From positions 480,001 through 544,000 of the forward strand of contig CAXXWS020000003.1 in NCBI GenBank assembly GCA_963665325.3: a stretch of 64,000 bases of DNA, read 5' to 3'. Under the pieces are notes generated by a model. That model had not been told where the DNA came from. It did not search any database and saw nothing but the letters and a program-made list of their open reading frames with translations. How positions within the stretch are numbered: the first letter of the stretch is position 1; each line of letters opens with the position of its first letter. The translations under genes and the position numbers were made by a program. Shown here in pieces: positions 32,586-45,903 of this stretch. This DNA is from Alphaproteobacteria bacterium (GTDB lineage: Bacteria; Pseudomonadota; Alphaproteobacteria; Bin95).

Positions 32586-33215
32586 CTACTGGCTGGCCCA
32601 GACGATGCGGGCGATCCAGTCCAGATCGGAGCGGGCCATGCTGCGGTCCTCGTGCGCGGGGTTGAAGGAGCGCAGCTCCACCCGGCGCGCGGTCAGCCGC
32701 GCGAGCCATTTCGCCAGCACCTCGCCCTCGCGGGTGCGCGCCACCACGCGGTCGCCCCGGCGCAGGCTCGCCGCCGGCGACACCACCACGATGTCCCCGT
32801 CGCGGTAGACCGGCTCGATGCTGTCGCCCGCGATCTCCAGCGCATAGGCGTTCGGGTCGCCCAGGCCCGGGAAGGCCACCTCGTCCCAGCCCGCGCCCAC
32901 CGGGTAGCCGGCATCGTCGAAAAAGCCGTTGCCGCCCGCCTGGGCATGGCCGATCACCGGGATGGTGTGCGCCGGCGCCCCCTCGCGGCGAAGCTGATCG
33001 GCAAAGAGGCCCGACACGCCGGAGCCGGTCGCCGCCATCGCCTTGGAGATGCTCTCCGTGCTGGGCCAGCGCGGGCGTCCGCCCCTGGTGGTGCGCTTGC
33101 TGCGGTTGAAGGTGGTCGGGTCCAGTCCCGAGCGCCTGGCGAGGCCGGATGCGGACAGACCGTTACGATCCGCCAGGGCGTCGAGGGCGGCCCAGACGTC
33201 GGAATGAGTCAGCAT
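32586..33215 (-). CDS. HTH + S24 peptidase (CI/LexA-like) repressor
   Basis: MLTHSDVWAALDALA..SGLARRSGLDPTTFNRSKR..RWPSTESI HTH; Ala-Gly site (HAQAGG), Ser (GDSIEP) and Lys (LAKWL) of S24 retained; divergent from the phage-like genes. Confidence 0.92.
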   Translation of the reverse strand: MLTHSDVWAALDALADRNGLSASGLARRSGLDPTTFNRSKRTTRGGRPRWPSTESISKAMAATGSGVSGLFADQLRREGAPAHTIPVIGHAQAGGNGFFDDAGYPVGAGWDEVAFPGLGDPNAYALEIAGDSIEPVYRDGDIVVVSPAASLRRGDRVVARTREGEVLAKWLARLTARRVELRSFNPAHEDRSMARSDLDWIARIVWASQ

Positions 33216-33279
33216 GATGCTCATTTACGCATAATTCCGCTTGACATGCACTAGGAATATGACCATATCCTCGTGCGTA

Positions 33280-33294
33280 GAACAAATCTCGAAC
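33280..33294 (+). promoter_or_regulatory. LexA (SOS) box, alphaproteobacterial type
   Basis: GAAC-AAATCTC-GAAC (GAAC-N7-GAAC) between TTGACA (33241) and ATG 33309. Confidence 0.75.
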
Positions 33295-33308
33295 ATGAAG
33301 AGGGATTC

Positions 33309-33662
33309 ATGCCTGTTTCCAGTCATTCACCTAATTCTCCCGCCGGCGAGGCGCCGTTCCGCAGTGCCGAGGAAGCCTGGTTCTGGTTCATGTCATGGCG
33401 TCTCATGGTCGAGGACGGCGGCACGCCCGGCTATGACGGCCGGGGCCGGCCGTGCATGCCGCTCGACATGTTGGCCTGCCTGCGCCGGCTCGTAAAGCCC
33501 GGCGGGCTCACCCGGCTCCAATTGAAGGTGCTGGCCAGGTTCGGCCGCCGTCTCGAAGCCCCCGGACACGGGCCGCTCGCCCGGCTCTGGGAGGACGCCA
33601 TGGCGCGGCTCGACGAGCTGTTGCGCGACAAGGGCATCGTCAGCAGGAGGCACGCAGCATGA
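33309..33662 (+). CDS. Hypothetical protein heading the phage-like operon (possible regulator)
   Basis: PFRSAEEAWFWF..RPC.PLD..LW.DAM.RL..LL..KGIV; stop overlaps the next ATG. Confidence 0.75.
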   Translation: MPVSSHSPNSPAGEAPFRSAEEAWFWFMSWRLMVEDGGTPGYDGRGRPCMPLDMLACLRRLVKPGGLTRLQLKVLARFGRRLEAPGHGPLARLWEDAMARLDELLRDKGIVSRRHAA

Positions 33663-34180
33663 CCGCCGCGCCGAACGCGGCGAATGGTGACGATGGCGCG
33701 CGCAACGCGGCGAACAGCAACGACGCCGCGCGCAACGCGGCGAACGGTAACGCCGCCGCGCCGAACGCGGCGAACAGTGACGCCGCCGCGCACAACGCGG
33801 CGAACAACAACGATAACGGCGGACGGGCGCTCGCCGTGTTCTCCGGCAGGGCGGACCTCTGCTGGCTCAGGCTGCTCCGGCCCGGCTTCCGTCATTGCTT
33901 CGTTGCGCTGGAGGAAGCCGGGCGGTGGATCACGGTCGATCCGCTGGCCGGCTACACCGATGTCGCCGTGCAGCCCGTACCGGCGGCCTTCGACCTCGCC
34001 GGCTTCTACCGCGAGCAGGGCTTCACGGTGGTGGAAACGCGCCGCCGCCGGCGCATCCGGCCCGCGCCGCTGCTGCCCGCCACCTGCGTCGAGGTGGCCA
34101 AGCGGGTGCTCGGAATCGCCTCCTGGCGCGTGATGACGCCGGGCCAGCTTCACGATTTCCTGCTCCGAAAGAGGAAATAA
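33659..34180 (+). CDS. Putative permuted papain/NlpC-P60-like protein with N-terminal repeats
   Basis: His-before-Cys order: GFRHCF ... TCVEVAKRVLG ... TPGQLH; five N-terminal 10-aa NAAN repeats. Confidence 0.65.
   Translation: MTAAPNAANGDDGARNAANSNDAARNAANGNAAAPNAANSDAAAHNAANNNDNGGRALAVFSGRADLCWLRLLRPGFRHCFVALEEAGRWITVDPLAGYTDVAVQPVPAAFDLAGFYREQGFTVVETRRRRRIRPAPLLPATCVEVAKRVLGIASWRVMTPGQLHDFLLRKRK
33661..33810. repeat. 30-bp tandem repeat x5 (palindromic core)
   Basis: Core CGCCGCG(C)NNAACGCGGCGAA every 30 bp, in frame. Confidence 0.9.
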
Positions 34181-34227
34181 ATCTCCTAATATCTCGACAA
34201 ACGAGAAACATGGCGTAAGATGCACTT

Positions 34228-34242
34228 GAACATGGAGAGAAC
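34228..34242 (+). promoter_or_regulatory. Second LexA (SOS) box, immediately upstream of the portal gene
   Basis: GAAC-ATGGAGA-GAAC overlapping the GGAG RBS, ending 4 bp before ATG 34247. Confidence 0.7.
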
Positions 34243-34246
34243 AAGC

Positions 34247-35848
34247 ATGAGCCTGGAAACACCCGACCCGGAAGCGCTGCTCGAAGGCTACCGCCGCGCG
34301 GAGGCCCGGCGGCGGCCCTGGGAGGCGCTGTGGCGCGATTGCGCCACCCATGCACTGCCGGGCGGAACGGCGGTCGCGGCACGGACCTACGACGCGACGG
34401 CCGCCGACGCCGCCGAACAGCTTGCCGCCAGCCTGCTCGCGGAACTGACGCCGCCCTTCGAGCGCTGGGTCGGTTTCGAGCCGGGGGGCGAGGCGGGCCC
34501 GGACGCGGTCGATGCGCTGGAGGAAGCCGCGGCCGCCGTGCAGGGCCATCTCGACCGCTCCGCCTTCGCGGTCGAGATGCACCAGGCGCTGCTCGACCTC
34601 GTGGTGTTCGGCACGGGCTGCCTGCTGTTCGAGGAGAGCGCGCTCGGCCGGGCCTCGGCCTTCCGCTTCACCGCGGTGCCGCTCGCGGAGACGGTGCTGG
34701 AGGAGGGGGCGGAAGGCCGGCTCGTCCGGGTCTGGCGGCGGCGGGAGCTTGGCCCGGCCGCGCTGAGGGAACGCTTTCCCCGCGTGCCCGTCCTGAATGG
34801 AGAGGGGCCGTTCGGCGTGGTCGAGCGCGTCGCGCCGGAGGCAGGAGGCGGCGCCGACGCCGCCAGTTCGATGAATCGCCGCGTTATGCGCGGCGGCGCC
34901 GACGCCGCCAGTTCGATGAATCGCCGCGTTATGCGCGGCGGCGCCGACGCCGCCAGTTCGATGAATCGCCGCGTTATGCGCGGCGGCGCCGACGCCGCCA
35001 GTTCGATGAATCGCCGCGTTATGCGCGGCGGCTACCGCTACCTCGCCGTGCTGGAAGGCGGCGGCGGGCGGGCGGCGCAGGTGCTGGCCGAGGGCCGGTT
35101 CGCCGTCTCGCCCTTCGTGTGCTTCCGCTGGCTAAAGGCGCCGGGGGAGATCTATGGACGCTCGCCGGTGATGAAGGCGCTGCCCGACATCAAGACCGCC
35201 GACAAGGTGGTGGAACTCATCCTGAAGAACGCCTCGATCGCCGCGACCGGCATCTGGCAGGCGGACGATGACGGCGTGCTCGACCCGACGGCGGTGGAGC
35301 TGGTGCCGGGCGCGGTGATGCCCAAGGCGGTCGGCTCGGCGGGCCTCACGCCGCTCGCCGCGCCGGGGCGCTTCGACGTTTCGCAGCTCGTGCTGGAGGA
35401 TTTGCGCAAGCGTATCCGCCACGCGCTGCTCGCCGACCGGCTGGCCGAGCCCGCGAGCCCGGCCATGACCGCGACCGAGGTGCTGGAGCGCGCGGCGGAA
35501 ACGGCAAGGCTGCTGGGCGCGACATACGGGCGGCTGGAGGCCGAACTGCTGACGCCGCTGATCGAGCGCGCGCTGGCGATCCTCGCCCGGCGCGGCGAGG
35601 TGCCGGCCTTCGCGCTGGACGGGCGCGACGCGGGACTTCGCCTTCGCTCGCCGCTGGCCCAGGCGGCCGGGCGGCGCGAGGCGGGGGCAGCGCTCACCTG
35701 GCTCGGCGCGGTGGCGGGGCTCGGGCCGCAGGCGCTGGCGGCGGTCGATACCGCGCGGGCCGCGCGCTGGCTCGGCGCCCGCCTCGGTGTGCCGCCCGCC
35801 CTGCTGGAGCCGCCGGACCTGCTGCCGGAAACGCCTCTCCTGGAGTAG
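34247..35848 (+). CDS. Phage portal / head-tail connector (T7 gp8-like)
   Basis: YDATAADAAEQLAASL..LTPP..RW, LLDLVVFGTG, FRW.KAPGEIYGRSP..KALPDIK, MTATEVLER, GATYGRLEAELL.PLI.R. Confidence 0.93.
   Translation: MSLETPDPEALLEGYRRAEARRRPWEALWRDCATHALPGGTAVAARTYDATAADAAEQLAASLLAELTPPFERWVGFEPGGEAGPDAVDALEEAAAAVQGHLDRSAFAVEMHQALLDLVVFGTGCLLFEESALGRASAFRFTAVPLAETVLEEGAEGRLVRVWRRRELGPAALRERFPRVPVLNGEGPFGVVERVAPEAGGGADAASSMNRRVMRGGADAASSMNRRVMRGGADAASSMNRRVMRGGADAASSMNRRVMRGGYRYLAVLEGGGGRAAQVLAEGRFAVSPFVCFRWLKAPGEIYGRSPVMKALPDIKTADKVVELILKNASIAATGIWQADDDGVLDPTAVELVPGAVMPKAVGSAGLTPLAAPGRFDVSQLVLEDLRKRIRHALLADRLAEPASPAMTATEVLERAAETARLLGATYGRLEAELLTPLIERALAILARRGEVPAFALDGRDAGLRLRSPLAQAAGRREAGAALTWLGAVAGLGPQALAAVDTARAARWLGARLGVPPALLEPPDLLPETPLLE
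34847..35032. repeat. 45-bp perfect tandem repeat x4 inside the portal gene
   Basis: GGCGGCGCCGACGCCGCCAGTTCGATGAATCGCCGCGTTATGCGC x4, encoding GGADAASSMNRRVMR. Confidence 0.95.
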
Positions 35849-35882
35849 CCGGCGAACTATACGACTGGCGGCGTCGGCGCCG

Positions 35883-36128
35883 CTATTCGGCCGGGGCGGC
35901 GGGCTGTTCGTTGCGCCGCACGATATAGCCTTCGAGGAAGTCCATCTTGCCTTCGATCCGGCTCAGGCGGTCGCGGATCTCCCGAAGTTCCGCCTCGATG
36001 CGGTCCATGCGGGCGCTGAGGCTGTTTTCCACGCCGTCGATGCGGGCGCCGAGACTGCGCTGGCCCTGAAGTATCAGGCCGGCGAGCGCGATGCCGACGG
36101 CAAGGGTCGCGATGAGTTCCGGAGTCAA
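35883..36128 (-). CDS. Small TM + coiled-coil protein inserted antisense in the phage-like operon
   Basis: GGAGGAG RBS plus TTG; TPELIATLAVGIALAGLIL (TM) then heptads RIDGVE..RMDRIEAELREIRDRLSRIEGKM. Confidence 0.7.
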   Translation of the reverse strand: MTPELIATLAVGIALAGLILQGQRSLGARIDGVENSLSARMDRIEAELREIRDRLSRIEGKMDFLEGYIVRRNEQPAAPAE

Positions 36129-36249
36129 GGGGCTCCTCCCCAACCGGCCGGGCAGGCCCGGCAACACTTTCGCCCGAGCGGGCGGCTCCTCCGGGGGCCG
36201 CCCGTTTTCTTTCAACCCTTTCTTCCGACGAAACTGGAGACAGACACAA

Positions 36250-36924
36250 GTGGAAACGGAGACCGAAACCGAAATGGAGGCACCGGCCCGGCCGGACGGC
36301 CTTCCGGACGAATTCTGGGACGCGGAGGCCGGCAGCGTCCGGCTCGACGAGCTGGTCGGCGCCTACGGGACGCTGGCTTCTGCGGAGCGCGCACCCGCAA
36401 GCCCGGAGGACTATGCGCTCGAACTGGACGGGCTGCTCGGCGGCCCGGACGCCGAGGCCAACCGGCGGATGCACGAAGCCGGCTTCACCAACGCGCAGGC
36501 GCAGCTTGTCTACGACATGGCGTCCTCGCTGCTGCTGCCGCTGGCGGGCGAGGTCGCGGGCGAGCTGGAGCGGGGCGAGCGCCAAGCCCGGCTGGCGGAC
36601 CGCTATGGCGGCGAGGACGGATGGCGGCGCGCGAAGGGCCAGATGGAGGCCTGGGCGGCCGCCAACCTGCCCGCCGGCGTGGCCGGGGCGCTTACCGGCT
36701 CGGTCGAGGGCGCGGCCGCGCTCGAACGGCTGATGGATGCGGGCGAGCCCGGCCTCGGCGGTCATGGCGGCGAAAGGCCGGGCGGCGCGGTGACGCTCGA
36801 CGGCCTGCGCCGGCTCCAGGGCGATCCCCGTTACTGGCGCGACCGCGACCCCGCCCTCGTCCGGCAGGTCATGGAGGGCTACCGGCGCCTCTACCCCGAC
36901 GCCGGCGAGGACGCCGGAATCTGA
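36250..36924 (+). CDS. Capsid assembly scaffolding protein (T7 gp9-like position)
   Basis: RPDGLPDEFWDAEAG, acidic helical body, C-terminal DPRYWRDRDPALVRQV.EGY.RLYP; lies between portal and capsid; start uncertain (36250 GTG or 36274 ATG). Confidence 0.8.
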   Translation: METETETEMEAPARPDGLPDEFWDAEAGSVRLDELVGAYGTLASAERAPASPEDYALELDGLLGGPDAEANRRMHEAGFTNAQAQLVYDMASSLLLPLAGEVAGELERGERQARLADRYGGEDGWRRAKGQMEAWAAANLPAGVAGALTGSVEGAAALERLMDAGEPGLGGHGGERPGGAVTLDGLRRLQGDPRYWRDRDPALVRQVMEGYRRLYPDAGEDAGI

Positions 36925-36997
36925 CAATTCGCCGCGTTCTGCGCGGCGACGGCGAGGACGCCGGAATCTGACAATTCGCCGCGTTCTGCGCGGCGAC
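36904..36997. repeat. 47-bp direct duplication spanning the scaffold stop codon
   Basis: GGCGAGGACGCCGGAATCTGACAATTCGCCGCGTTCTGCGCGGCGAC x2. Confidence 0.9.
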
Positions 36998-37068
36998 GGC
37001 GACGACGGGTCCTGATGCGGACCCGGCACACACGCAAACCCTGAAACCGCAACAGGAGGACAGGCAAC

Positions 37069-37887
37069 ATGCCCGTCGATCTTTCCCCTTCCTTCATCAA
37101 GGCGTTCGAGGGCGAAGTCCACAGCGCCTACCAGCGCCAGGGCTCGAAGCTCCGCGACACGGTGCGCACCCGGCGCGGCGTCATGGGCTCCAGCGTCACC
37201 TTCCGCAAGGTCGGGCGCGGCGCCGCATCCACCAAGGCCCGGCACGGCCAGATCCCGGTGATGAATGTCGATCACGCCGCCATCGAATGCCAGCTCAGGG
37301 ACTATTACGCCGGTGAATGGGTTGACCGGCTCGACGACCTGAAGATCGGCGGCGGCGAGCGCGACACGGTCGCCAAGGCAGGCGCCTATGCGCTCGGCCG
37401 CAAGACCGACCGGCTCGTCGCCGCGGCGCTCGACGGCTCGACGAACTTCGCCGGCGCCGACACGGACGGGCTGACGAAGGCAAAGGTGCTCACCGCCTTC
37501 GAGATGCTCGGCCAGGCCGACGTGCCGGACGACGGCGAGCGCACGTCCGTCATCGGCTGGAAGCAGTGGTCGGACCTCATGAAGATCGAGGAGTTCGCCA
37601 ATGCCGATTATGTGGGGGCGGAAGACCTGCCCTGGCGCGGCACCCAGGCGAAGCGCTGGCTCGGCACGCTCTGGCTGCCGCATTCGGGGCTGACGCTCGA
37701 TGGCTCGGTCCGGCTCTGCCACTGGTACCACAAGAGCGCGGTCGGCCACGCCGCCGGCGCGGAAGTCACCACCGACATCACCTGGCACGGCGACCGCGCC
37801 GCCTGGTTCGTCGCCAACTGGATGAGCCAGGGCGCCGTGTCGATCGACGCCGAGGGCGTCGTGACCATGCGCTGCCTCGAAGACTGA
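37069..37887 (+). CDS. Major capsid protein
   Basis: SFIKAFEGEVHSAYQRQGSKLR.TV, DYYAGEWVDRLD, AGAYALGRKTD, WLGTLW.PHSGL, MSQGAVSID..GV; strong AGGAG RBS. Confidence 0.92.
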   Translation: MPVDLSPSFIKAFEGEVHSAYQRQGSKLRDTVRTRRGVMGSSVTFRKVGRGAASTKARHGQIPVMNVDHAAIECQLRDYYAGEWVDRLDDLKIGGGERDTVAKAGAYALGRKTDRLVAAALDGSTNFAGADTDGLTKAKVLTAFEMLGQADVPDDGERTSVIGWKQWSDLMKIEEFANADYVGAEDLPWRGTQAKRWLGTLWLPHSGLTLDGSVRLCHWYHKSAVGHAAGAEVTTDITWHGDRAAWFVANWMSQGAVSIDAEGVVTMRCLED

Positions 37888-37916
37888 CCGCAACGACAGG
37901 GAGACAACGCCAGGCA

Positions 37917-38276: not shown

Positions 38277-38367
38277 CGCCAGCCGGGGGTTCGCCCCCGG
38301 TCCCCGACCTTCCCCGCCCCCTCTCCCTCGCGGAGAGGGGGCTTTTGCCTGAAAGGAGGCTGCCTTC

Positions 38368-38928
38368 ATGGCATTGACCGCCATCCAGATCGCGAGCCAG
38401 GCGCTCGTCCGGCTGGGCGCGCTGCCGATTTCCGATTTCGCGGAGCCAGTGCTCGAGGCGCGCACCGCCGCCGCGCTCTACCCGACGCTCCGCGACACGC
38501 TGATCGCCGGCCATGCCTGGCGCTTCGCCACGGCGGAGGCCGAGCTCGATCCGGCGGACGAGGCGCCGTTGCCCGGTTTCGCGCATGTCTTCCGGCTGCC
38601 GGCCGATTTCCTGAACGTGCTGGCCGTGGAGGGCGGGCGCGAGACCGGCTGGCGCATTGCCGGCGGAAAGCTGCACGCCCATCCGGCGGCGGTGCGGCTC
38701 GCCTATCTCTTCCGCGCCGACGAGGCCGAGTTCCCGCCCTGGTTCGCGGACGCGCTTGCCGCCGCCCTTGCCGCCGCCTTCTGCCTGCCGGTGACGGAGA
38801 ATGCGTCGCGCGCCGAGGCGCTGGCGCGTCTTGCCGAAACGGCGCTCCGCCGCGCCCGGCGCATCGACGCGCTGCACGACCCGGCGCCCGCGCCCGCGCA
38901 CTTCCCGCTGATCGAGGTGCGGGCATGA
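38368..38928 (+). CDS. Tail tubular protein A / adaptor (T7 gp11-like)
   Basis: IASQALVRLGALPI, HAWRFA, FRLPADFL.VL, FPPWFADAL.AALAA. Confidence 0.85.
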   Translation: MALTAIQIASQALVRLGALPISDFAEPVLEARTAAALYPTLRDTLIAGHAWRFATAEAELDPADEAPLPGFAHVFRLPADFLNVLAVEGGRETGWRIAGGKLHAHPAAVRLAYLFRADEAEFPPWFADALAAALAAAFCLPVTENASRAEALARLAETALRRARRIDALHDPAPAPAHFPLIEVRA

Positions 38929-40802
38929 CGCGGATCAACACGCTCAAGACCTCGTTCGGCGCGGGCGAGCTCGCGCCGCGCCTCGCGGGGCGTCCGGACC
39001 TCGCCGCCTATCGCGACGGCGCGCGCCGGCTCCGCAATGTTGCGGTCCATGCGACGGGCGGTCTGTCGCGGCGGCCGGGGCTCGCCTTCGTCGAGGCCGC
39101 GCCCGGACCCGGCCGGCTCGCCGCCTTCGAGTTCAACACGGAGGAGAGCTACCTGCTGCTGTTCACCGACCGGGCGCTGCGCATCTACAGAAACGGCAAC
39201 CGGACCGCTCTCATTGCCGCACCCTGGCGGGAAGCGGACCTGGCGCAGATCAACTGGACGCAGACGGCGGACACGCTGCTGGTCGTCCATCCCGACTACC
39301 CGCCGCAGACCGTGACGCGCCGGGCGGGGGAGGACTGGCGGATCGCGCCCTGGGAATGGGCCGGGCGCGCCGGCAGGTCGGGGCAGCCCTACCACCGCTA
39401 CGCTCCGCCTTCGGTCACGCTCGCGCCGTCCGGGGCCTCGGGACGCATCCGCTTGACGGCGTCGGCGGATGTCTTCGCGGCCGAGGATACGGGCCAGGTC
39501 TTCCGGATCGGCGCAGACGAGGTTCGGATCGTGCAGGTCGTGTCGGCCACGGAGGTGGAAGCGGATGCGGTCGGCACGCTTTCGGGCGGAACGGCAGCGA
39601 CAGCGGACTGGCGCGAGCCCGCCTTCTCGCCCCGGCGCGGCTGGCCGGTCTCGGTCGTGTTCCACCAGAACCGGCTGGTCATCGGCGGCGCGCGCTCCCT
39701 GCCGGACCGGATCTGGCTCTCGCGCACAGGGGCCTTCTTCGACTTCGACACCGGCACGGGGCTCGACGACGAGGCCATCGCCTTCCCGCTGCTCGCGGAC
39801 CAGGCGAATGCGGTGCGCGCGGTCGTCTCCGGGCGGCATCTGCAGGTTTTCACCTCAGGCGCGGAATGGGCCGTCTACGGCGACCCGCTGACCCCCGCCT
39901 CGATCCAGCTTCGCCGGCAGACGCGCATCGGCTCGCCGGCCGACCGCGCCGTCCGCCCGGTCGATGTCGAGGGGGCGGTGCTTTTCCTTGCCCGCAACGG
40001 GCGGGAGCTGCGCGAGTTCCTGTTTGCCGATGCCGAGCTCGCCTACCGGGCGCAGGACCTGGCGTTGCTCGCGAGCCATCTGTTCGCAGCACCGGCGGAG
40101 CTGGCCTGGGACGGCGCATCCCGGCGCCTGCTGGTCGTCATGGGCGACGGTTCGATCGCCGCGCTTACCGCCTGGCGGGCGGAGGGCATCCATGCCTGGA
40201 CACGGTTCGAGACCGACGGGGCGTTCCGGTCGGCCGCGGTTGCGGGCGGCGCGGCCTGGGCGCTGGTCGAGCGCGAGGGCCGGTTCTCGGTAGAGCGTTT
40301 CGACGAGGTGCTCGGCGTGGACGCGGCGGTCTCCGGGACGGCGCCGAACCCCACCCGCGCCTGGGGCGGCCTCGCCCATCTGGAAGGGCGGACGGTCGCG
40401 GCCGTCGCGGACGGACGGGCGCTCCCGGGGCTCCGGGTCTCGGGCGGACGCATCCTGCTCGACGCTCCGGCGGGCCATGTGCAGGCCGGCCTCGCCTTTG
40501 CGCACAGGGTCGAACCGCTCGTTCCCGGCGTCCAGCTTGCGCGCGGCGCGATGCAGGGCGTGGCGCACCGGGCCGTGCGGGTGGTGCTGCGCCTCGAGAG
40601 CACCGAGGCGCTTCGGTGCGACACGGGCTTCGGATTTCGCCGGGCCGCGCTCGGCGACGACCCTTTCACGGGCGACATCTCCCTCGGCGCGGGCGGCTGG
40701 CGGCGCGACGGCGCGGCGCCGCTCTGGCGAATCGAGGACGAGAGCCCGCTTCCCTTCCACCTCCTTTCCGCTTCAACCGAACTCAAGGTGACCGACATAT
40801 GA
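38925..40802 (+). CDS. Tail tubular protein B / nozzle (T7 gp12-like)
   Basis: TSFGAGELAPRL.GR.DL, NV...TGGLSRRPGL, QTADTLLVVHPD, GWP.SV.FHQNRL, IWLSRTG.FFDF, LQVFTSGAEW, HAWTR. Confidence 0.88.
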   Translation: MTRINTLKTSFGAGELAPRLAGRPDLAAYRDGARRLRNVAVHATGGLSRRPGLAFVEAAPGPGRLAAFEFNTEESYLLLFTDRALRIYRNGNRTALIAAPWREADLAQINWTQTADTLLVVHPDYPPQTVTRRAGEDWRIAPWEWAGRAGRSGQPYHRYAPPSVTLAPSGASGRIRLTASADVFAAEDTGQVFRIGADEVRIVQVVSATEVEADAVGTLSGGTAATADWREPAFSPRRGWPVSVVFHQNRLVIGGARSLPDRIWLSRTGAFFDFDTGTGLDDEAIAFPLLADQANAVRAVVSGRHLQVFTSGAEWAVYGDPLTPASIQLRRQTRIGSPADRAVRPVDVEGAVLFLARNGRELREFLFADAELAYRAQDLALLASHLFAAPAELAWDGASRRLLVVMGDGSIAALTAWRAEGIHAWTRFETDGAFRSAAVAGGAAWALVEREGRFSVERFDEVLGVDAAVSGTAPNPTRAWGGLAHLEGRTVAAVADGRALPGLRVSGGRILLDAPAGHVQAGLAFAHRVEPLVPGVQLARGAMQGVAHRAVRVVLRLESTEALRCDTGFGFRRAALGDDPFTGDISLGAGGWRRDGAAPLWRIEDESPLPFHLLSASTELKVTDI

Positions 40803-41215
40803 GCGCACTTCTTCCCGTAGCCCTGGCGGCGGGCAATGCCCTGCTCGCCGAAGCCTCCGCCGCCGAGACGGCCTCCCGGCGCCGCGCCGCCGCGAATGCC
40901 CAGGCGGCCGACCTCCGCGCCCGCACGGACGAACGGGAACGCCTGCGCCGCCGCCGGCTGAAGCAGGCGCTCGCCCGGGCCCGGGCGCGGTTCGGCGCGG
41001 CCGGCACCGGCTCCGCCGGCGGGTCCGCCGCCGCCCTGCTCGGAGGGCTTGCGGCCGAAAGCGAGCGGGAGGGCCGCCATGCCGGGAATGCGGCCTCCCG
41101 CCGGCTCGCCGCGCTCGGGGCCGACCGGGCCCATGCGGGCCGGCTCGACCGGCTGGGCCTCCTGCGCCGCGCGGGCGGGCTGCTCGCGCCGCGTCCCGCG
41201 GGGCGGCGCGGCTGA
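40799..41215 (+). CDS. Putative internal virion/ejection protein (T7 gp14-like)
   Basis: Ala-rich helical protein with ARARFGAAGTGSAGGSA motif; ATG overlaps the tail B stop. Confidence 0.55.
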   Translation: MSALLPVALAAGNALLAEASAAETASRRRAAANAQAADLRARTDERERLRRRRLKQALARARARFGAAGTGSAGGSAAALLGGLAAESEREGRHAGNAASRRLAALGADRAHAGRLDRLGLLRRAGGLLAPRPAGRRG

Positions 41216-41227
41216 CGGGCGGCGGCC

Positions 41228-41407
41228 TTGGATGCGCTCTCACTCCGGGTCTTCGCCGAATACGGGCCGCTCGCCCTCGGCTGGGGGCTCGCGGCCTGGC
41301 TGCTGCACCGCGATGCCCGCGGCCGCCAGCAAGTGCTCGATGTCATCGTCGCCAACACGCGCGCGCTCGCCGTGCTGGCCGAGAAGATCGACGCGCTCAG
41401 GCGGTAG
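41228..41407 (+). CDS. Small holin-like membrane protein
   Basis: 59 aa read manually: (M)DALSLRVFAEYGPLALGWGLAAWLLHRD..VIVANTRALAVLAEKIDALRR (TM plus coiled coil). Confidence 0.5.
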   Translation: MDALSLRVFAEYGPLALGWGLAAWLLHRDARGRQQVLDVIVANTRALAVLAEKIDALRR

Positions 41408-41417
41408 CGGGGGCCGC

Positions 41418-41461
41418 CCTTCGATACGCGCCCGCTTGCGCGGTCGCTACTCAGGGTGAGG
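41418..41461. repeat. Half copy of a REP-like repeat
   Basis: CCTTCGATACGC..GCTACTCAGGGTGAGG, near-identical to 45833-45876. Confidence 0.7.
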
Positions 41462-41676
41462 GAAAAGCCGGGAGTGGCGGTCCGGGCCCTCCCTCTTCGC
41501 GAGTAGCGGCGCTCCCCGGCTACCGGCCGCTGCTTACGATCCGCTATCCAATCCAACGGAGGTTCGATGAACCCCACCTTCCCTGCTTTTCTCGATGCCT
41601 GGAACCGCAGCCAGAATCTGGCGACGCCCGCGCTTCACCGGAACATCGCCGAATGGTTCGGCCGCCGGATCGCTAG

Positions 41677-43746
41677 CCCAAGTTTAACAGAGCATTTTGA
41701 AGATCATTGATTATCAATGCCTTACGGAGCAATAATTTCGCGTCTGGCACTACATTTCGGTTATTTCGCCCGGTTCGGGATCAGACGATCATTTTCCTGA
41801 TGCCTCCAGGGGCGGGGTCGATGCCGAGCGCGCGATAGATTTCTTGCTGTTCGGGCTCGGCCCGTGTGGCCTTGCGGACATGCAAGGTGCGTCCGTCCTT
41901 GCGCCTGAAGGTCGCGGTGACCCGCTGCTGGCCTTCGAGGATGGCTCGCAGGCTGGCCCAGCTGGCGTGTTCGCCGTGCTCGGCGAGGCGCCGGCGGATG
42001 GTCTGCACCATCTGGTAGGCGATCACGGTGATGAACAGGTGGCCGTCGGAGCGCCTCTGGGTCTGGTGGAAGATGGGGCGCAGGCCGAGTTCCGACTTGA
42101 GCGATCGGAACACCGCCTCCACATCGGTGAGCGAGGTATAGGTCCGCCACAGCGCCTCCTCGTCCCAGTCCTCGACGTTGGTGCGCAGGCAGTAAACGCC
42201 GGGATGGGTGGCCATGGTGCCGGCGAGCGGGCGGCGCTCCCATGTGACGGCCCGGGCCTTCTCGCCGCTTTCGTCGGCGATGACGTCGATGTCGTAGTGG
42301 GCCGCGGCGCCGCGGCTCTTCTCCCTGATCCGGCCGATCCGCTGCCAGACATGGTCGAGCCGCTTGCGGGTGCGCGGCCGCTTGAGGCCGTCGTGGAGCT
42401 TCTGCATCTCGCCCTCGAAGCGCGCGGCGAAGCGGTTTGCGATGCCCTGTTCCTTCTTCGCCCGCGCCTCGGAGTAGCAGTAGAGCCGCGCCTCTCCAGC
42501 TTCGGCGTCGACCGCCTTGTGGACATGGACCGTCTGGCGCGACCGGGTCTCGATGGCCAGCGCCAGCTCGGGATCGAAGCGGCGGGTGCGTTCCCGGCTG
42601 ACCGCGAGATAGCGGTAGCCGTTCGCGCGCAGCCAGGCGATGTTGGCCTCGGTGGCGATCCCCGCATCCATCACCACCAGCGCGTCCGCCGGCGCGCCCA
42701 GGGCGCCGAGCATCGACGCCAGGGTCCTGTCTTCGTTGACCGCGCCCGAGAACACCTCGGAGCGGCGCACGAAGCCCGAGCCGTCGAGCACCAGCCCCAG
42801 GGTCAAGAGCGGGCAATCCGAGCGCTTCTCCTTGGAATGGCCGCGTTCGGCCTTGGCCTGGGCCGCCGCCGCGCCCTCGAAGAAGGTGTTGGTCAGGTCG
42901 TACAGCGTCACCGTGTGGCGCAGGCCGAACAGATCCGTCGCCCGATCGAACAGATGCGCCTCGATCGCCGCGCGCTGCGCCATCAGGGCGTCGGAGGCGC
43001 GGTACAGGCGCATCATGCTCATGCGCTCGAAGTCCACCCCCAGCAACTCGCCGAGCGCCGAACGCTCGCACAGCCAGCGCCAGGAGGCGCGCTCCGAGCC
43101 CGGCGCCGCCATGCGCGCGATCACGGTGGCCATGGCGAGCGCGCGCTGCGTGCCGTTGAAGCCCAGGCGCTCCAGCAAAGCCTCCAGGCCGAGCCGCTCC
43201 ATGGCCCACAGCCCGACATGCTCGACGCCGACCGAACGCGGGCGGATCAGCTCCAGGGAGCCGACATCCACCGTCTGCAGGTCAGGGCGCCCGGTCCCGC
43301 CGGACGGCGCGCTGTTGAGCAATTGCGCGGCGATGCGCTGGGCGTGCCGCTCGACCTCCTCCGGACAGGACAGCGAAACCAGCTCGGCCTGGCGGTCGAG
43401 CTGCTGCTGGATCCGGCTGCACAGCACCGCCCAGTGCCGCCGCTCGACAGGGAAGTCGCTCCCCAGGTTGAGCAGGGTGCGCTGGCGGATCTTCCCGCCG
43501 TCGCGCTCCGAGCGAACAAGGCGATGGGAATAATAGACCTCGCCGCGCTCGCCGGTTCCGGTCCTGGTGCGGCGAATGAACATGGCGCACAGCATAGGAG
43601 CGGGCGCAAGGTCTCGAAATCCCCAAGTGAAAATATTATGGCACTACATTGCGCCCCCGGAAACCTCAATCCAGCAATATCAATGGCTTGATGACACCGC
43701 GCCGGCCAACCTCGACAAAATCGGCCACCAAAACGTTAAACTTGGG
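41677..43746 (-). mobile_element. IS1634-family insertion sequence
   Basis: Terminal IRs CCCAAGTTTAAC / GTTAAACTTGGG; CTAG duplicated at 41673-41676 and 43747-43750. Confidence 0.93.
41781..43583 (-). CDS. IS1634 transposase
   Basis: RQRTLLNLG, YDLTNTFFEG, GHSKEKRSD, VMDAGI, VEAVFRSLKSELGLRPIFHQ. Confidence 0.94.
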   Translation of the reverse strand: MFIRRTRTGTGERGEVYYSHRLVRSERDGGKIRQRTLLNLGSDFPVERRHWAVLCSRIQQQLDRQAELVSLSCPEEVERHAQRIAAQLLNSAPSGGTGRPDLQTVDVGSLELIRPRSVGVEHVGLWAMERLGLEALLERLGFNGTQRALAMATVIARMAAPGSERASWRWLCERSALGELLGVDFERMSMMRLYRASDALMAQRAAIEAHLFDRATDLFGLRHTVTLYDLTNTFFEGAAAAQAKAERGHSKEKRSDCPLLTLGLVLDGSGFVRRSEVFSGAVNEDRTLASMLGALGAPADALVVMDAGIATEANIAWLRANGYRYLAVSRERTRRFDPELALAIETRSRQTVHVHKAVDAEAGEARLYCYSEARAKKEQGIANRFAARFEGEMQKLHDGLKRPRTRKRLDHVWQRIGRIREKSRGAAAHYDIDVIADESGEKARAVTWERRPLAGTMATHPGVYCLRTNVEDWDEEALWRTYTSLTDVEAVFRSLKSELGLRPIFHQTQRRSDGHLFITVIAYQMVQTIRRRLAEHGEHASWASLRAILEGQQRVTATFRRKDGRTLHVRKATRAEPEQQEIYRALGIDPAPGGIRKMIV

Positions 43747-45123
43747 CTAGGGGTACGCGGCGCATGCTGCTGCTGGCCTTCCGGGGCTCCGGCAAATCGA
43801 CCCTGCTCGGCCTGCTTGCGGCCTGGATGCTCAGGCGCGACCCGGACCGGCGCATCCTGGTGCTGGCGGCGGAGGCGGCGCTGGCGTCCAAGACGGTGCG
43901 CACGGTGCGCCGCATCCTGGAGCGCCATCCGCTGACGGAAGCGCTCCGGCCCGACCGGCCCGAGGAATGGGCGGCCGACCGGCTGACCGTGCCGCGCCGG
44001 CTCGTCTCGCGCGACCCCTCGCTGCTGGCGCGCGGCATCGGTGCCAATATCACCGGAAGCCATGCCGATATTGCGATCTGCGACGATGTCGAGGTGCCCA
44101 ACACCTGCGGCACGCCGGCGAAGCGGGCCGACCTGCGCGCCCGGCTCTCGGAGATCGACTATGTGCTGAGCCCCGGCGGCTTCCAGATCTACAGCGGCAC
44201 GCCGCACAGCTACTACTCCATCTATGCCGGGGACCCGCGGCCGGAGGAAGGCGACAAACGGCCGTTCCTGCACGACTTCCGACGGAAGGAGAAGAAACTC
44301 ACGAAGAATGCGTGGCCGGAACGCTTTCCGGCGAAAACGATCCGTGCGATCCGCAAGCGCGCGGGCCCGGCGCGCTTTGCGAGCCAGATGCTGCTCGAGC
44401 CCGTGCAGTCGGAGGACGGACGGCTGAACGCCGAATGGCTGCGCCGCTACGAGGAGGCGATCGACTACAGCGAGGTGAACGGCAAGCCCGTGCTGCGACT
44501 GGCCGGCCGGCGGCTGGTCTCCGCCTCGGCCTGGCTGGACCCCTCCTTCGGCAGGCGGGACAAGGGCGACGCCTGCGTTCTCGCCGCGGTGTTCACCGAC
44601 GAGGACGGCCGGCGCCTGCTGCACCGGGTGGCCTATCTCTATTACGACCCGAAGAACGACCGCGACGGCGCGGCGAAGCAGTTGTGCCGGCAGGCGGCCG
44701 CCCATGCGCGCAAGCTGCTGCTGCCGGTCGTCCATGTGGAGTCCAACGGCATGGGGGCATGGATCCCGAAAATCCTGGAACGGGAACTGGCGCGCGAGGG
44801 GCACGGCGCCACGGTCATCGGCATCCCCAACAGCCGGCCGAAGCATGAGCGCATCCTGGAGGCATTCGATGCGCCGCTCGCCGCCAATGCGCTGTGGGCC
44901 CATGCCAGCGTGTTCAAGTCCTCCTTCCTGCGCGAACTGAGGGAATGGCGGCCGGAGAACCGGAACGGCCCTGACGACGGGCTGGACGCAGCCGCCTGCG
45001 CGTTGCTGGCGGAGCCGGACCGCATCCGCCGGCTCGGCCGCGCGCCGCGCCTGGAATGGCGGGAGCACGCAAGCCCCGGCCGGGCCCGCACCGATTTCCG
45101 CATCTGACGAAGGAGGAAACCCC

Positions 45124-45672
45124 ATGATTCCCGCACTTCTCGCCCGGATCGGGCTGCCGCTGATCGCGCGCCTCGCCGGCGCCGGCCTGGAGGCGCTCGA
45201 CAACCCGGCGGCCGACGCCGCCGCAAAGGCGCTCCGCGAGGTGGACGGCGTGCTTCGCAGCGGCGGCGTCGCCCCGGAGGCGCTCGAGGCCGCGAACCGG
45301 CGCATCGAGGTGAAGGCGCGCTCGCGTGAGGCGCAGACCGCCTGGCGCGAGGTCAACGCCACCATGCGCGCCGAGACCCGTGCCGAGGATGCCTATGTGC
45401 GCCGCTGGCGGCCGACCTTCGGCTATGCGGTGACGGCCGCCTGGGCGCTGCAGATGGCCGCCATCGCCTGGGCGGTGGTCGCCCACCCGCCGGACGCGCC
45501 GGCGATCCTGGCGGCCGCAGCCTCGCTCAGCGCCATGTGGGGCGTGGCGCTGGCGGTGCTGGGCGTGGCCGTGCATGAACGCTCGCGCGACAAGGCGCTC
45601 GCCGCCGGCCAGCCTGCTTCCGGTCTCGCGAGCCTGGCCGCCGCCCTGCTGGACCGCCGGAAGGCGGAGTAA
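45124..45672 (+). CDS. 3TM-type holin (family described for gene-transfer release)
   Basis: VNATMRAE..EDAYVRRWRPTFGY plus TM helices and RSRDK; AGGAGG RBS. Confidence 0.85.
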   Translation: MIPALLARIGLPLIARLAGAGLEALDNPAADAAAKALREVDGVLRSGGVAPEALEAANRRIEVKARSREAQTAWREVNATMRAETRAEDAYVRRWRPTFGYAVTAAWALQMAAIAWAVVAHPPDAPAILAAAASLSAMWGVALAVLGVAVHERSRDKALAAGQPASGLASLAAALLDRRKAE

Positions 45673-45876: not shown

Positions 45877-45903
45877 AGAGGGCCGGGACGCCGGCGCCCC
45901 TGC

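What the first reader, a model, noticed from the sequence alone, without database searches (positions are those of the whole stretch)
32586..45672. Candidate podovirus-derived gene transfer agent: a T7-like virion module with no integrase or replication genes
Seen: about 11 kb (excluding the IS) with a divergent repressor, then 2 small ORFs, portal, scaffold, capsid, decoration-like protein, tail tubular A, tail tubular B, ejection-like protein, small holin-like protein, TerL and 3TM holin. It is flanked directly by metabolic genes (acetoacetate-CoA ligase, HpcH aldolase). No integrase, att repeat, polymerase, primase or helicase was recognised, GC is host-like and host REP elements lie inside. 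Established: RcGTA-type agents are siphovirus-derived head-tail clusters that lack replication and integration genes and are host-regulated; the portal-scaffold-capsid-tailA-tailB order is T7-like. Inference: a domesticated short-tailed particle system (GTA-like) unrelated to RcGTA. I recall similar clusters in other Rhodospirillales but have not verified this.
Basis: partly seen in the sequence, partly recalled or inferred. Interest (0 to 1): 0.9.

Follow-up and report, generated by a model that had tools for sequence, protein, structure and literature searches.

The report
Domesticated short-tailed phage particle cluster
This is an 11-kb set of short-tailed-phage head, tail and DNA-packaging genes with no replication or integration genes; many related bacteria have inherited it like an ordinary gene, so it is a strong candidate for a new kind of gene transfer agent, although this copy was recently broken by a jumping gene.

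Summary
Window 32586-45672 holds a divergent CI/LexA-like repressor, two small ORFs, T7-type portal, scaffold, capsid, tail tubular A and B, a small internal-virion-like protein, TerL and a 3TM holin. It is 11,010 bp without a 2,077-bp IS that splits TerL. There is no integrase, att repeat or replication gene.

- The collinear cluster is single-copy in 12/16 and 10/10 species of two sister genera, in 97/121 species of a second family, and in 69/401 sampled Alphaproteobacteria.
- Capsid and TerL trees follow host taxonomy.
- The same host neighbours (class I LysRS; DUF952/pyrD) flank it across many families.
- dN/dS is 0.07-0.41, with dS like that of host genes.
- In several genomes the cluster is split by up to 1.5 Mb and the ORFs stay intact.
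- No relative lay in a full-size phage, on a plasmid, or regularly beside an integrase.
- It never co-occurs with RcGTA-type genes (0 of 401).
- An alphaproteobacterial LexA box sits in its promoter.

Particle production and packaging of host DNA remain untested. This genus lacks the tailspike gene and shows more relaxed constraint. I found no published description.

The parts
32586..33224 (-). Divergent CI/LexA-like repressor (HTH + S24 autopeptidase). The Ala-Gly cleavage site (AQAG), the Ser of GDSIEP and the Lys are all intact.
   Evidence: Pfam PF00717 1.3e-20 and phrog_4. Alignment of 23 homologues. dN/dS 0.20.
33225..33308 (+). Regulatory region: TTGACA at 33241, TAGGAA half-site at 33252 (palindromic TAGGAA..TTCCTA in relatives), and a LexA-type box GAACAAATCTCGAAC at 33280-33294.
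   Evidence: The same GAAC-N7-GAAC motif lies at -69 of the host lexA gene. The box is exact in 29 of 84 loci. Genome background is 119 per 5.58 Mb.
33309..33662 (+). orfA: conserved four-helix protein of unknown function, first gene of the rightward operon.
   Evidence: GC3 frame. 39-sequence alignment A3 with invariant F, W, C, D, L, P, W. AF2 pLDDT 85, no PDB match. Atlas gives leads only.
33659..34180 (+). orfB: conserved alpha/beta protein with invariant H-C...C (GFRHC / TCVE), a possible permuted cysteine hydrolase. The N-terminus carries 30-nt tandem repeats (33661-33813).
   Evidence: Alignment A4 of 47 sequences. AF2 pLDDT 90.8, no PDB match with E<0.3. Atlas lead YiiX/NlpC-P60 at 0.76. 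Repeats.
34220..35848 (+). T7-type portal (head-to-tail connector), with four perfect 45-nt in-frame tandem repeats at 34847-35026 in its variable loop.
   Evidence: PF12236 2e-115 and phrog_332. Repeats.
35883..36215 (-). Inserted opposite-strand ORF (110 aa, one TM segment plus coiled coil). Not part of the ancestral cluster.
   Evidence: GC3 0.84. Homologue at the same place in G011, G009 and G012, and after the holin in G016 and G008. Weak DUF7310 match.
36091..36924 (+). Scaffolding protein (start codon uncertain).
   Evidence: Position and conservation. Homologues in two small genomes match PF05396, T7 capsid assembly protein, 3.9e-9. The window protein itself has no Pfam hit.
37069..37887 (+). 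Major capsid protein.
   Evidence: PF19821 3.7e-78 and phrog_3437. dN/dS 0.13. 44% identical to the capsid of Pelagibacter phage EXVC031P.
37917..38276 (+).
   Evidence: phrog_18004 2.8e-11 over residues 1-75. Conserved in most loci.
38368..38928 (+). Tail tubular protein A (adaptor).
   Evidence: phrog_394 7e-41.
38925..40802 (+). Tail tubular protein B (nozzle).
   Evidence: phrog_376 1.1e-130; weak PF25675 match.
40799..41215 (+). Small internal-virion-like protein.
   Evidence: phrog_418 1.2e-6. A homologue follows tubular B in all clades.
41228..41407 (+). 59-aa protein with one hydrophobic segment, unknown function (genus-specific).
   Evidence: GC3 0.90. dN/dS 0.13 in 10 species. No family hit.
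41408..41545 (.). REP-like host repeat inside the element.
   Evidence: 20 blastn hits in G000, this place included, one at window 45825-45888.
41567..41673 (+). TerL, first ~36 codons, cut off by the IS.
   Evidence: Translation matches the N-terminus of the intact 488-aa TerL of G011.
41674..43750 (-). IS (DDE transposase 41781-43595) inserted in TerL. Terminal inverted repeats CTAGCCCAAGTTTAAC.
   Evidence: PF01609. 12 full copies at 99.95-100% identity in G000. IS-free joints in contigs of runs X3 and X4.
43751..45107 (+). TerL, remainder (Walker A GSGKS onward).
   Evidence: phrog_38 3.3e-66. 98% identical to G011 TerL.
45124..45672 (+). 3TM holin; last gene of the element.
   Evidence: PF11351 GTA_holin_3TM 4.8e-11, above the cut-off. 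Homology to relatives ends at 45671.

Best explanation
The cluster is one copy of an old, chromosomally fixed, selection-maintained family of podovirus-derived particle genes. In other words, it is a GTA-like 'viriform' candidate. It derives from an HTVC010P/T7-type short-tailed phage that lost its replication, integration and large internal-core genes.

Proposed working; steps marked as inference are not shown.
- Induction. DNA damage activates RecA. Host LexA leaves the GAAC-N7-GAAC box in the promoter, and the CI-like repressor cleaves itself at Ala-Gly. This is inferred from motifs.
- Expression. The rightward operon is transcribed: orfA, orfB, portal, scaffold, capsid, tail tubular A/B, small internal protein, TerL, holin.
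- Assembly and packaging. Procapsids form on the T7-type portal and TerL fills them. The element can neither excise nor replicate, so the substrate must be chromosomal DNA (inference).
- Release. The stubby tail is added, with a tailspike in most lineages, and the 3TM holin releases the particles. A SleB-like hydrolase sits after TerL in some lineages, and orfB may be a hydrolase.
- Delivery. Without gp15/gp16-like core proteins, DNA entry into recipients may need the recipient's own uptake machinery, as for RcGTA (inference).

In this strain the system is off. An IS with 12 near-identical genomic copies splits TerL, while related strains in public runs keep the intact gene. The whole genus also lacks the tailspike gene, so its version may be altered or slowly decaying.
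For: Gene content is confirmed. There is no att repeat, and no integrase lies nearby.

Distribution, almost always as a single copy:
- 12/16 and 10/10 species in two genera of the order, and 0/10 in the third.
- 97/121 species in the family of G092.
- 69/401 genomes, or 56/307 genera, in a class-wide sample, including genomes of 0.9-1.4 Mb.

The layout is collinear; 48 loci held rep, capsid and TerL together.

Host groups are monophyletic in the capsid tree (11 changes against a minimum of 10) and the TerL tree (5 against 5).

The same host neighbours recur. Class I LysRS lies beside rep in 24 loci and DUF952 and/or pyrD lies beside the TerL end in 23 loci; 37 of 129 loci searched showed at least one of these host genes. 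They span many families.

Element distances track LysRS distances: rho 0.81-0.84, Mantel p<=0.0005, n=18. The capsid diverges at 0.48 times the LysRS rate.

dN/dS is 0.13-0.41 here and 0.07-0.30 in Roseomonadaceae. In Roseomonadaceae dS is 0.40-0.79 against 0.54 for host LysRS.

The cluster is split with intact ORFs:
- G316: the two halves are 1.5 Mb apart.
- G288: 73 kb apart.
- G134 and G078: 10-13 kb of other genes inserted.

Relatives are never full-size phages. The 39 IMG/VR contigs are at most 15.9 kb. The best phage capsid is 44% identical, and that phage carries 783-aa and 1247-aa proteins after tubular B which the elements lack. There are no hits in 72,556 plasmids.

Flank ORFs are housekeeping genes. 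Integrase is in at most 2 of 118 left-flank and at most 1 of 106 right-flank ORFs.

A LexA box lies in the promoter in 29/84 loci from at least 9 lineages, and the same motif sits upstream of the host lexA gene.

An IS-free TerL allele is present in runs X3 and X4.

Literature lead: in Azospirillum lipoferum-group strains, mitomycin-C-induced particles hold about 10 kb of DNA and are regarded as a GTA whose genes are unidentified (PMC3899980, passages read). This capsid family is present in several Azospirillum species.
Against: - No direct evidence exists for particles, for packaging of host DNA, or for transfer.
- The only RNA signal is a few 90-95% contigs in one metatranscriptome library, which may be DNA carry-over.
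- The window's TerL is broken.
- No tailspike homologue was found in any sister-genus or Geminicoccaceae locus, or anywhere in G000.
- No TerS or endolysin was recognised in this genus.
- Constraint is weaker here than in Roseomonadaceae: TerL dN/dS is 0.41 against 0.15.
- One sister species has a truncated copy (G009), and three to four sister species lack it.
- Some copies elsewhere are pseudogenes: G046, G420, G488 and others.
- The capsid is close to that of 34-kb phages. If T=7 is kept, a head could hold more than the element's own length, unlike classical GTAs.
- Retention of a phage-type repressor is unlike RcGTA.
- I recall, without having seen the paper, that the Azospirillum particles were described as siphovirus-like. 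That would break the literature link.
Confidence: 0.65

Rival explanations
1. It is a defective prophage kept for another host benefit, not for gene transfer. One option is a PBSX-like SOS-induced killing or altruistic-lysis particle. Another is a locus kept mainly for its repressor (superinfection immunity).
For: The SOS-type control elements, an S24 repressor plus a LexA box, resemble PBSX-like or prophage induction more than RcGTA regulation. The repressor is among the most conserved genes (dN/dS 0.07 in Roseomonadaceae). Two clades lack a tailspike, which argues against delivery to other cells.
Against: All structural genes and TerL are under purifying selection, not just rep. Conservation of TerL points to DNA-filled heads. 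Tailspikes with varied enzymatic domains are kept in most clades, which implies adsorption to cells. These rival functions are not exclusive of DNA transfer.
Confidence: 0.2
2. It is a decaying prophage remnant without function, at least in this genus. On this view the conservation elsewhere does not apply here.
For: In this genus the IS sits in TerL, no tailspike gene is present, G009 has a truncated copy, three to four species have none, and dN/dS is higher than in Roseomonadaceae. There are also in-frame repeat expansions in portal and orfB, and REP and ORF insertions.
Against: Nine sister species were compared. In these, 13 genes remain open with dN/dS 0.13-0.41, at a synonymous divergence of 0.2-0.6. 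Neutral decay over that distance would give frameshifts and dN/dS near 1. The IS copies are 99.95-100% identical, so the insertion is recent. IS-free alleles exist in related strains.
Confidence: 0.1
3. It is a still-mobile element: a miniature temperate phage, or a phage satellite that relies on a helper phage or on host recombinases for integration and replication.
For: The element has sharp borders and a phage-type repressor. The left flank differs among all sister species. IMG/VR pipelines call such regions viral.
Against: No integrase, att repeat or replication gene is present. It is single-copy. The same host neighbours recur across families. It co-diverges with host genes and has a matching dS. 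Clusters split by up to 1.5 Mb stay intact. It is never found on plasmids. No inter-clade transfer is seen in the TerL or capsid trees.
Confidence: 0.05

Closest known systems
RcGTA-type gene transfer agents (Rhodogtaviriformidae) of Alphaproteobacteria
   Same: Both are phage-derived head-tail-terminase clusters without replication or integration genes. Both are vertically inherited and under purifying selection, with capsid trees that follow the hosts. In both, genes may lie in more than one locus. Both have a 3TM holin of family PF11351.
   Different: The ancestry is unrelated: T7/HTVC010P-type portal PF12236, capsid PF19821 and tail tubular A/B, rather than an HK97-protease siphovirus module. 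PF13547 is not found in G000, and the two never co-occur in 401 genomes. This element keeps a phage-type S24 repressor and a LexA box, whereas RcGTA is under CckA-CtrA/GafA control (recalled). TerL lies at the end of the operon.
HTVC010P-type / T7-like podophages (e.g. Pelagibacter phage EXVC031P Hodr, Methylophilales phage MEP301)
   Same: The structural gene order is the same: portal, scaffold, capsid, small ORF, tubular A, tubular B, small internal protein. The capsid is 44% identical to Hodr's and tubular B is about 31-32% identical to those of MEP301 and Hodr.
   Different: Those are 32-37 kb replicating phages with large internal proteins (783 and 1247 aa in Hodr) and early or replication genes. 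This element is 10-16 kb, lacks all of these, and is fixed in the chromosome.
FpGTA of Faecalibacterium (PMC12946183, passages read)
   Same: It is a GTA-like element of about 10.5 kb plus a second locus. [quoted passage not shown]
   Different: It is from Firmicutes. Sequence relationship was not tested here because no sequences were at hand. FpGTA has experimental evidence of 8.4-8.9 kb host fragments; this element has none.
BaGTA of Bartonella (PMC3610622, passages read)
   Same: It is an alphaproteobacterial GTA cluster with terminase, portal, capsid and tail-fibre genes, vertically conserved within a genus.
   Different: The gene table there lists terminase directly beside portal, and an adjacent run-off replication region is described. 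Here TerL is at the far end and no replication origin is associated. Homology was not tested.
PBSX-type defective prophages of Bacillus
   Same: Both are SOS-inducible defective prophages conserved in a genus, with a repressor next to the late operon. PBSX packages 13 kb of random host DNA.
   Different: PBSX has a contractile tail and an unrelated gene set. It kills sensitive cells and does not transfer DNA.

Membership tests
Gene transfer agent / viriform (general definition) | Phage-derived particle genes in the host chromosome, without the means to replicate, excise or integrate | tested here: met
   No integrase, att repeat, polymerase, primase or helicase was found in the element. The nearest recombinase genes are >350 kb away. 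The flanks of 48 related loci are housekeeping genes.
Gene transfer agent / viriform (general definition) | Vertical inheritance with the host (fixed locus, congruent trees) | tested here: met
   Caveats: host groups were taken from record titles and coded genera, and only one host gene (LysRS) served as the clock, not a species tree.
Gene transfer agent / viriform (general definition) | Purifying selection on the particle genes | tested here: met
   Pairwise NG86 dN/dS is 0.13-0.41 (10 loci of this genus) and 0.07-0.30 (11 Roseomonadaceae).
Gene transfer agent / viriform (general definition) | Particles are produced and released | not testable with these tools
   Only a weak hint exists, from contigs of one RNA library, plus a literature lead from Azospirillum.
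Gene transfer agent / viriform (general definition) | Particles carry random host DNA, too little to encode the agent, and deliver it to recipients | not testable with these tools
   Capsid capacity cannot be read from the sequence. No TerS was recognised.
Gene transfer agent / viriform (general definition) | Control by host regulators | tested here: inconclusive
   A LexA-type box sits in the promoter; the same motif lies upstream of the host lexA gene. This is a motif only. The element also keeps its own repressor.
RcGTA-type (Rhodogtaviriformidae) | RcGTA gene set (HK97 capsid with prohead protease, siphovirus tail, g15 GTA_TIM domain) | tested here: not met
   PF13547 is absent from G000 and from all 69 carriers of this capsid. 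The portal and capsid families are different.
Functional T7-like / HTVC010P-type (pro)phage | Portal PF12236, scaffold, capsid, tail tubular A and B | tested here: met
Functional T7-like / HTVC010P-type (pro)phage | Large internal core/ejection proteins, replication genes, 30-40 kb genome | tested here: not met
   Only a 138-aa phrog_418-like protein follows tubular B. The element is 11.0 kb. All 39 IMG/VR relatives are on contigs of at most 15.9 kb.
Phage satellites (PICI, cf-PICI, P4-like) | Own integrase, att sites, replication module, patchy strain-level distribution | tested here: not met
   The element is near-universal and single-copy within genera.

The most novel reading that the evidence does not exclude
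This is a second major, ancient GTA lineage of the Alphaproteobacteria. It would be a podovirus-derived, SOS-triggered particle system. It became fixed between lysK and pyrD before the families that now carry it diverged, and it occupies the lineages that lack RcGTA-type clusters. It may also be the unidentified genetic basis of the mitomycin-C-inducible particles with about 10 kb of DNA reported from Azospirillum lipoferum-group strains.
Probability: 0.4. Interest if true: 0.9.

Novelty: new variant of a known kind. Interest (0 to 1): 0.8.

Why it matters
GTAs are known from few independent origins, and the alphaproteobacterial ones studied so far are siphovirus-like (RcGTA) or Bartonella-specific.

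A vertically inherited short-tailed particle cluster matters for four reasons:
- It is present in about one sixth of sampled alphaproteobacterial species, including Azospirillum, Magnetospirillum, Roseomonas, Tagaea and Geminicoccus, and in symbionts with 0.9-Mb genomes.
- It never co-occurs with RcGTA-type genes, so phage domestication for particle production would be far more general in this class than thought.
- It offers culturable models in which a simple trigger (DNA damage, or repressor deletion) can be tested.
- It could settle the open question of what encodes the Azospirillum 'GTA'.

It also gives a natural series of reduced forms for asking which parts such particles need: with or without tailspike, split clusters, and repressors that have lost their catalytic serine.

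Tried and rejected
Structure and function of the small ORFs:
- AF2 models were confident (pLDDT 85 for orfA, 90.8 for orfB). Foldseek against the PDB gave nothing below E 0.3.
- The protein atlas gave only weak named leads: Q antiterminator 0.81 and YiiX/NlpC-P60 0.76. I use these as leads, not results.
- NCBIfam named none of 10 element proteins, apart from a sub-threshold lexA hit for rep.

TerS:
- The 59-aa ORF before TerL does not align convincingly with the roughly 100-aa acidic ORF (phrog_31793) that precedes TerL in other clades. No TerS is assigned.

Tailspike in this genus:
- A g2 tailspike protein found nothing in G000.
- tblastn with six tailspikes found nothing in G000.
- An HMM of the conserved N-terminal anchor gave 57 hits. 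None was in G000, in the sister-genus loci or in Geminicoccaceae loci.
- A 786-aa pectate-lyase-like ORF lies left of rep in five Geminicoccaceae loci and lacks that anchor. Its role is left open.

Mosaic TerL:
- I first read the 98% versus about 75% TerL identities within the genus as allele exchange.
- The TerL tree puts all ten genus sequences in one clade, sister to the sister genus. It is fast divergence, not import.

The 35880-36145 'REP':
- It is single-copy in G000 and is really a small opposite-strand ORF.
- The true REP-like repeat is 41408-41545.

Expression:
- The RNA-library run X20 gave only a few contigs at 90-95% likeness. Most bins had depth under 10, and one bin (34904-35387) had no cover. 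DNA carry-over cannot be excluded.
- I draw no conclusion about transcription or about uncovered parts.

Literature:
- Seven full-text searches found no description of this cluster as a GTA or domesticated element.
- Boyer et al. 2008, the primary Azospirillum paper, is not held. What I say about it comes from PMC3899980 and from recollection.

Other limits:
- The Mantel script stopped with a division error after four genes. TerL and rep were not computed there.
- Geminicoccaceae dN/dS rests on saturated dS above 1 and is not used as evidence.

Full report
WHAT IS THERE.
- a leftward CI/LexA-like repressor with an S24 autopeptidase domain (32586-33224);
- then rightward: orfA (33309-33662), orfB (33659-34180), T7-type portal PF12236 (34220-35848), scaffold (36091-36924), capsid PF19821 (37069-37887);
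- a small conserved ORF (37917-38276), tail tubular A (38368-38928) and B (38925-40802);
- a 138-aa internal-virion-like protein (40799-41215) and a 59-aa hydrophobic ORF (41228-41407);
- TerL (41567-41673 plus 43751-45107), split by an IS;
- a PF11351 3TM holin (45124-45672).

The IS is 2,077 bp (41674-43750). It has 12 full copies at 99.95-100% identity in the genome, so the insertion is recent. The intact 488-aa TerL is seen in a sister species. Without the IS the element is 11,010 bp, with GC 0.720 against 0.680 for the window. The flanks are an AMP-binding ligase and an HpcH aldolase.

Homology to sister-species loci starts at the rep stop (32575-32585, in eight of nine loci) and ends at 45667-45671. 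No att-like direct repeat brackets the element. No tRNA lies within 10 kb. The genome has 63 tyrosine-recombinase and 12 serine-recombinase hits, yet the nearest on this contig are more than 350 kb away.

WHERE ELSE IT OCCURS. The capsid is single-copy in the window's genome.
- In the window's order (one family, three genera), a close homologue is present in 12 of 16 and 10 of 10 species of two genera, and in 0 of 10 of the third.
- In the first, looser search, 13 of 16 same-genus genomes matched, one of them only as a contig-end fragment.
- tblastn of all element proteins against 20-kb stretches from 15 relatives shows the whole cluster collinear.
- A scan of one genome per GTDB species found 112 relatives. 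The 80 loci kept include Tagaea, Ferrovibrio, Ferruginivarius, Roseospirillum, Caenispirillum, Terasakiella, Phaeospirillum, (Para)Magnetospirillum, many Geminicoccaceae, and many Roseomonas plus Muricoccus, Humitalea and Caldovatus. Capsid identity is 56-71%, with the same layout.
- In an even sample of 401 alphaproteobacterial genomes, 69 (56 of 307 genera) have a capsid at E<=1e-40. It is almost always a single copy, and carriers include genomes of 0.9-1.4 Mb.
- In the family around G092, 97 of 121 species carry it. One genus has 57/60, another 15/16, another 0/10. G092's capsid is 87% identical to that of Azospirillum endophyticum.
- The big protein collection holds 4,051 capsid clusters at E<=1e-30, named only 'phage capsid protein' or 'hypothetical'. 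Hosts include Azospirillum, Skermanella, Rhodocista, Telmatospirillum, Shumkonia, Oleisolibacter, Constrictibacter and Ferrovibrio.

IS IT A PROPHAGE, A SATELLITE OR A FIXED HOST LOCUS? Seven lines point to a fixed locus.

First, relatives never lie in phage-sized genomes.
- The best phage capsid is 44% identical (Pelagibacter phage EXVC031P, 34 kb). Others are about 30%.
- That phage has 783-aa and 1247-aa proteins after tubular B, which the elements lack.
- All 39 IMG/VR contigs with this capsid are at most 15.9 kb.
- 72,556 plasmids gave no hit.

Second, the flanks are host genes.
- Pfam scans covered the three nearest ORFs on each side of 48 loci: 118 left-flank and 106 right-flank ORFs.
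- They returned tRNA synthetase, LPG synthase, amino-acid and cofactor enzymes and transporters.
- Phage_integrase was not among the 25 commonest families. It therefore occurs in at most 2 of 118 left and at most 1 of 106 right ORFs.

Third, the same host neighbours recur across families.
- Class I LysRS lies next to rep in 24 loci.
- DUF952 and/or dihydroorotate dehydrogenase lies next to the TerL/holin end in 23 loci.
- These loci come from Tagaea, Roseomonadaceae, Ferruginivarius, Roseospirillum, the sister genus g2 and several coded families. In all, 37 of 129 loci searched showed at least one of these host genes.
- In the window's own genus the element sits elsewhere. Its right flank is shared by six species, while the left flank differs in every species and consists of metabolic genes.

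Fourth, the trees follow the hosts.
- In a 96-row capsid tree, Roseomonadaceae (15/15), Tagaea and the window's genus each form one clade, and Geminicoccaceae needs two label changes. All 11 labelled groups need 11 changes against a minimum of 10.
- In a 66-row TerL tree, all six host groups are monophyletic (5 changes, the minimum). The window's genus is sister to its sister genus.

Fifth, element divergence tracks the neighbouring host gene.
- Over 18 loci, Spearman rho is 0.81-0.84 for capsid, tubular A, tubular B and portal against LysRS (Mantel p<=0.0005).
- The capsid changes about half as fast as LysRS.
- Kin are not independent, so this mainly shows between-clade agreement.

Sixth, selection.
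- Pairwise NG86 dN/dS is 0.13 (capsid) to 0.41 (TerL) in ten loci of this genus, against 0.06-0.16 for four host genes on the right flank.
- dS is of the same order: 0.22-0.64 against 0.21-0.31.
- In 11 Roseomonadaceae all 13 genes give 0.07-0.30, with dS 0.40-0.79. Host LysRS there gives 0.17 and 0.54.

Seventh, split clusters.
- G316, a one-contig genome, has rep-orfA-orfB-portal-scaffold at 0.72 Mb and capsid-to-holin at 2.2 Mb.
- In G288 the halves are 73 kb apart.
- In G134 and G078, 10-13 kb of other genes separate scaffold and capsid.
- In G092 the portal itself is interrupted.
- Apart from that interrupted portal, the portal and capsid frames in these genomes are open (no stops inside).
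- In two 0.9-Mb genomes the genes are shuffled among housekeeping genes such as SHMT, DnaB, PlsX and FolD.

A unit that works when its halves are 1.5 Mb apart is not a mobile genome.

REGULATION.
- The repressor is highly conserved. In the window it keeps the AQAG cleavage site, the Ser of GDSIEP and the Lys.
- Geminicoccaceae, one Tagaea subclade, G075 and G316 have lost the Ser and/or the Ala-Gly.
- Between rep and orfA lies TTGACA (33241), then a TAGGAA half-site that is a perfect TAGGAA..TTCCTA palindrome in some relatives.
- Next comes GAACAAATCTCGAAC (33280-33294). GAAC-N7-GAAC is, from my knowledge of the literature, the alphaproteobacterial LexA box.
- The host's own lexA gene carries GAACTAATGTAGAAC at -69.
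- The motif or its complement is exact in 29 of 84 rep-proximal regions from at least nine lineages, with different spacers. The genome background is 119 per 5.58 Mb, or 0.003 per 150 bp.
- I infer dual SOS control by LexA and the cleavable repressor. This is motif evidence only.

WHAT IS MISSING OR ODD.
- Most clades carry, between the small internal protein and TerL, a 500-860-aa tailspike. It has a conserved N-terminal anchor and varied C-terminal domains: GDSL esterase in g2, pectate-lyase-like in Roseomonas, DUF7483 in Tagaea.
- An HMM of the anchor finds 57 hits. None is in the window's genus, in Geminicoccaceae loci or anywhere in G000.
- A SleB-like hydrolase follows TerL in Roseomonas and G033 but has no homologue in G000.
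- orfB has invariant His-Cys...Cys, a confident model without a PDB neighbour, and a weak atlas lead to permuted NlpC/P60 hydrolases. It might supply a lytic or processing activity.
- orfA is a four-helix protein without a match. No TerS was recognised.
- Constraint in this genus is weaker than in Roseomonadaceae. One sister species has a truncated copy (G009), three to four have none, and scattered pseudogenes occur elsewhere.

THE WINDOW'S COPY IN ITS POPULATION. Twenty public runs from 13 studies, among them sponge metagenomes, hold all or part of the stretch.
- Contigs of two runs from other studies join 41673 to 43749, so they carry TerL without the IS.
- The best holder also has an IS-free variant.
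- One metatranscriptome library has contigs of 90-95% likeness over scaffold-capsid, capsid-small ORF and the holin. This is a weak hint of transcription in a relative and no more.

COMPARISON WITH WHAT IS KNOWN.
- It works like a GTA on every criterion that sequence can test. It is not a member of the RcGTA family: the portal and capsid families differ and there is no GTA_TIM domain.
- Among the 401 sampled genomes, 69 carry this capsid, 32 carry GTA_TIM and none carries both. About 5.5 would be expected if the two were independent, though relatedness inflates this contrast.
- BaGTA has a different gene order according to its paper. Homology was not tested.
[quoted passage not shown] A short-tailed GTA-like element is therefore no longer without precedent, but that one is from Firmicutes.
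- Seven full-text searches found no description of the present family.
- A review-type passage states that mitomycin-C-induced particles of A. lipoferum strains and Azospirillum sp. B510 hold about 10 kb of DNA, are thought to be a GTA, and that their genes are hard to identify (PMC3899980). This capsid family is present in at least ten named Azospirillum species. The link is a lead. The primary paper was not available, and I recall that it described the particles as siphovirus-like.

VERDICT.
- The defining behaviour, particles carrying host DNA, is untested.
- The window's own copy is recently inactivated, and its genus carries a tailspike-less, less constrained version.
- I rate this a new variant of a known kind, with interest 0.8.

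Noticed in passing
window 34847-35026 (portal) and 36897-36990: There are four perfect 45-nt in-frame tandem repeats (15 aa each) inside the variable loop of the portal gene. They share a hairpin-like motif (CGCCGCGTT.TGCGCGGCG) with a 47-nt x2 repeat in the scaffold-capsid spacer. This looks like a REP-like hairpin amplified inside a coding region.
   Followed up: partly
window 33661-33813: Five 30-nt tandem repeats encode a low-complexity AAxNAANxxD stretch at the N-terminus of orfB. The conserved domain starts only after them.
   Followed up: no
window 35883-36215 (-): A 110-aa ORF (one TM segment plus coiled coil, weak DUF7310 match) lies on the opposite strand between portal and scaffold. 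It is at the same place in G011, G009 and G012, but after the holin in G016 and G008. G000 has six weaker paralogues.
   Followed up: partly
window 41408-41545 and 45825-45888: A REP-like repeat gives 20 blastn hits in the genome (78-87% identity outside its own place). One copy lies inside the element before TerL and one lies just outside its right border.
   Followed up: partly
G000 whole genome: The load of mobile DNA is heavy: 63 tyrosine-recombinase hits, 12 serine-recombinase hits, and 12 near-identical copies of the 2,077-bp IS. Near-identical sequence occurs in sponge metagenome runs, which suggests a sponge-associated organism.
   Followed up: partly
L157 (G281) and L158 (G406), genomes of 0.9 Mb: In tiny low-GC genomes the cluster genes are shuffled among housekeeping genes. 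TerL is only about 200 aa (ATPase part), yet capsid, portal, scaffold and tubular genes remain open.
   Followed up: partly
L066, L087 (Geminicoccaceae), L047 (Tagaea), L165 (G075), L184 (G316): rep homologues: The repressor has lost the catalytic Ser and/or the Ala-Gly cleavage site in several lineages but remains conserved. The Geminicoccaceae loci examined also mostly lack an exact LexA-type box. Regulation seems to have been rewired there.
   Followed up: partly
L087:3053-5413(-), with homologues in L095, L102, L110, L113: A 786-aa ORF with a pectate-lyase-like domain lies just left of rep, on rep's strand, in one Geminicoccaceae subclade that lacks the usual tailspike. It may be a relocated tailspike with a different anchor, or a host enzyme.
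   Followed up: no
L068, L105, L123 (Magnetospirillum group and one IMG/VR contig): Two or three ORFs matching the tailspike N-terminal anchor occur in one element, which suggests several receptor-binding proteins.
   Followed up: no
family of G092, genus g310: One genus of 6.3-7.5-Mb genomes lacks the capsid in all 10 species searched, while neighbouring genera have it in 57/60 and 15/16. This is a clean lineage-wide loss and worth comparing with RcGTA-type gene content.
   Followed up: no
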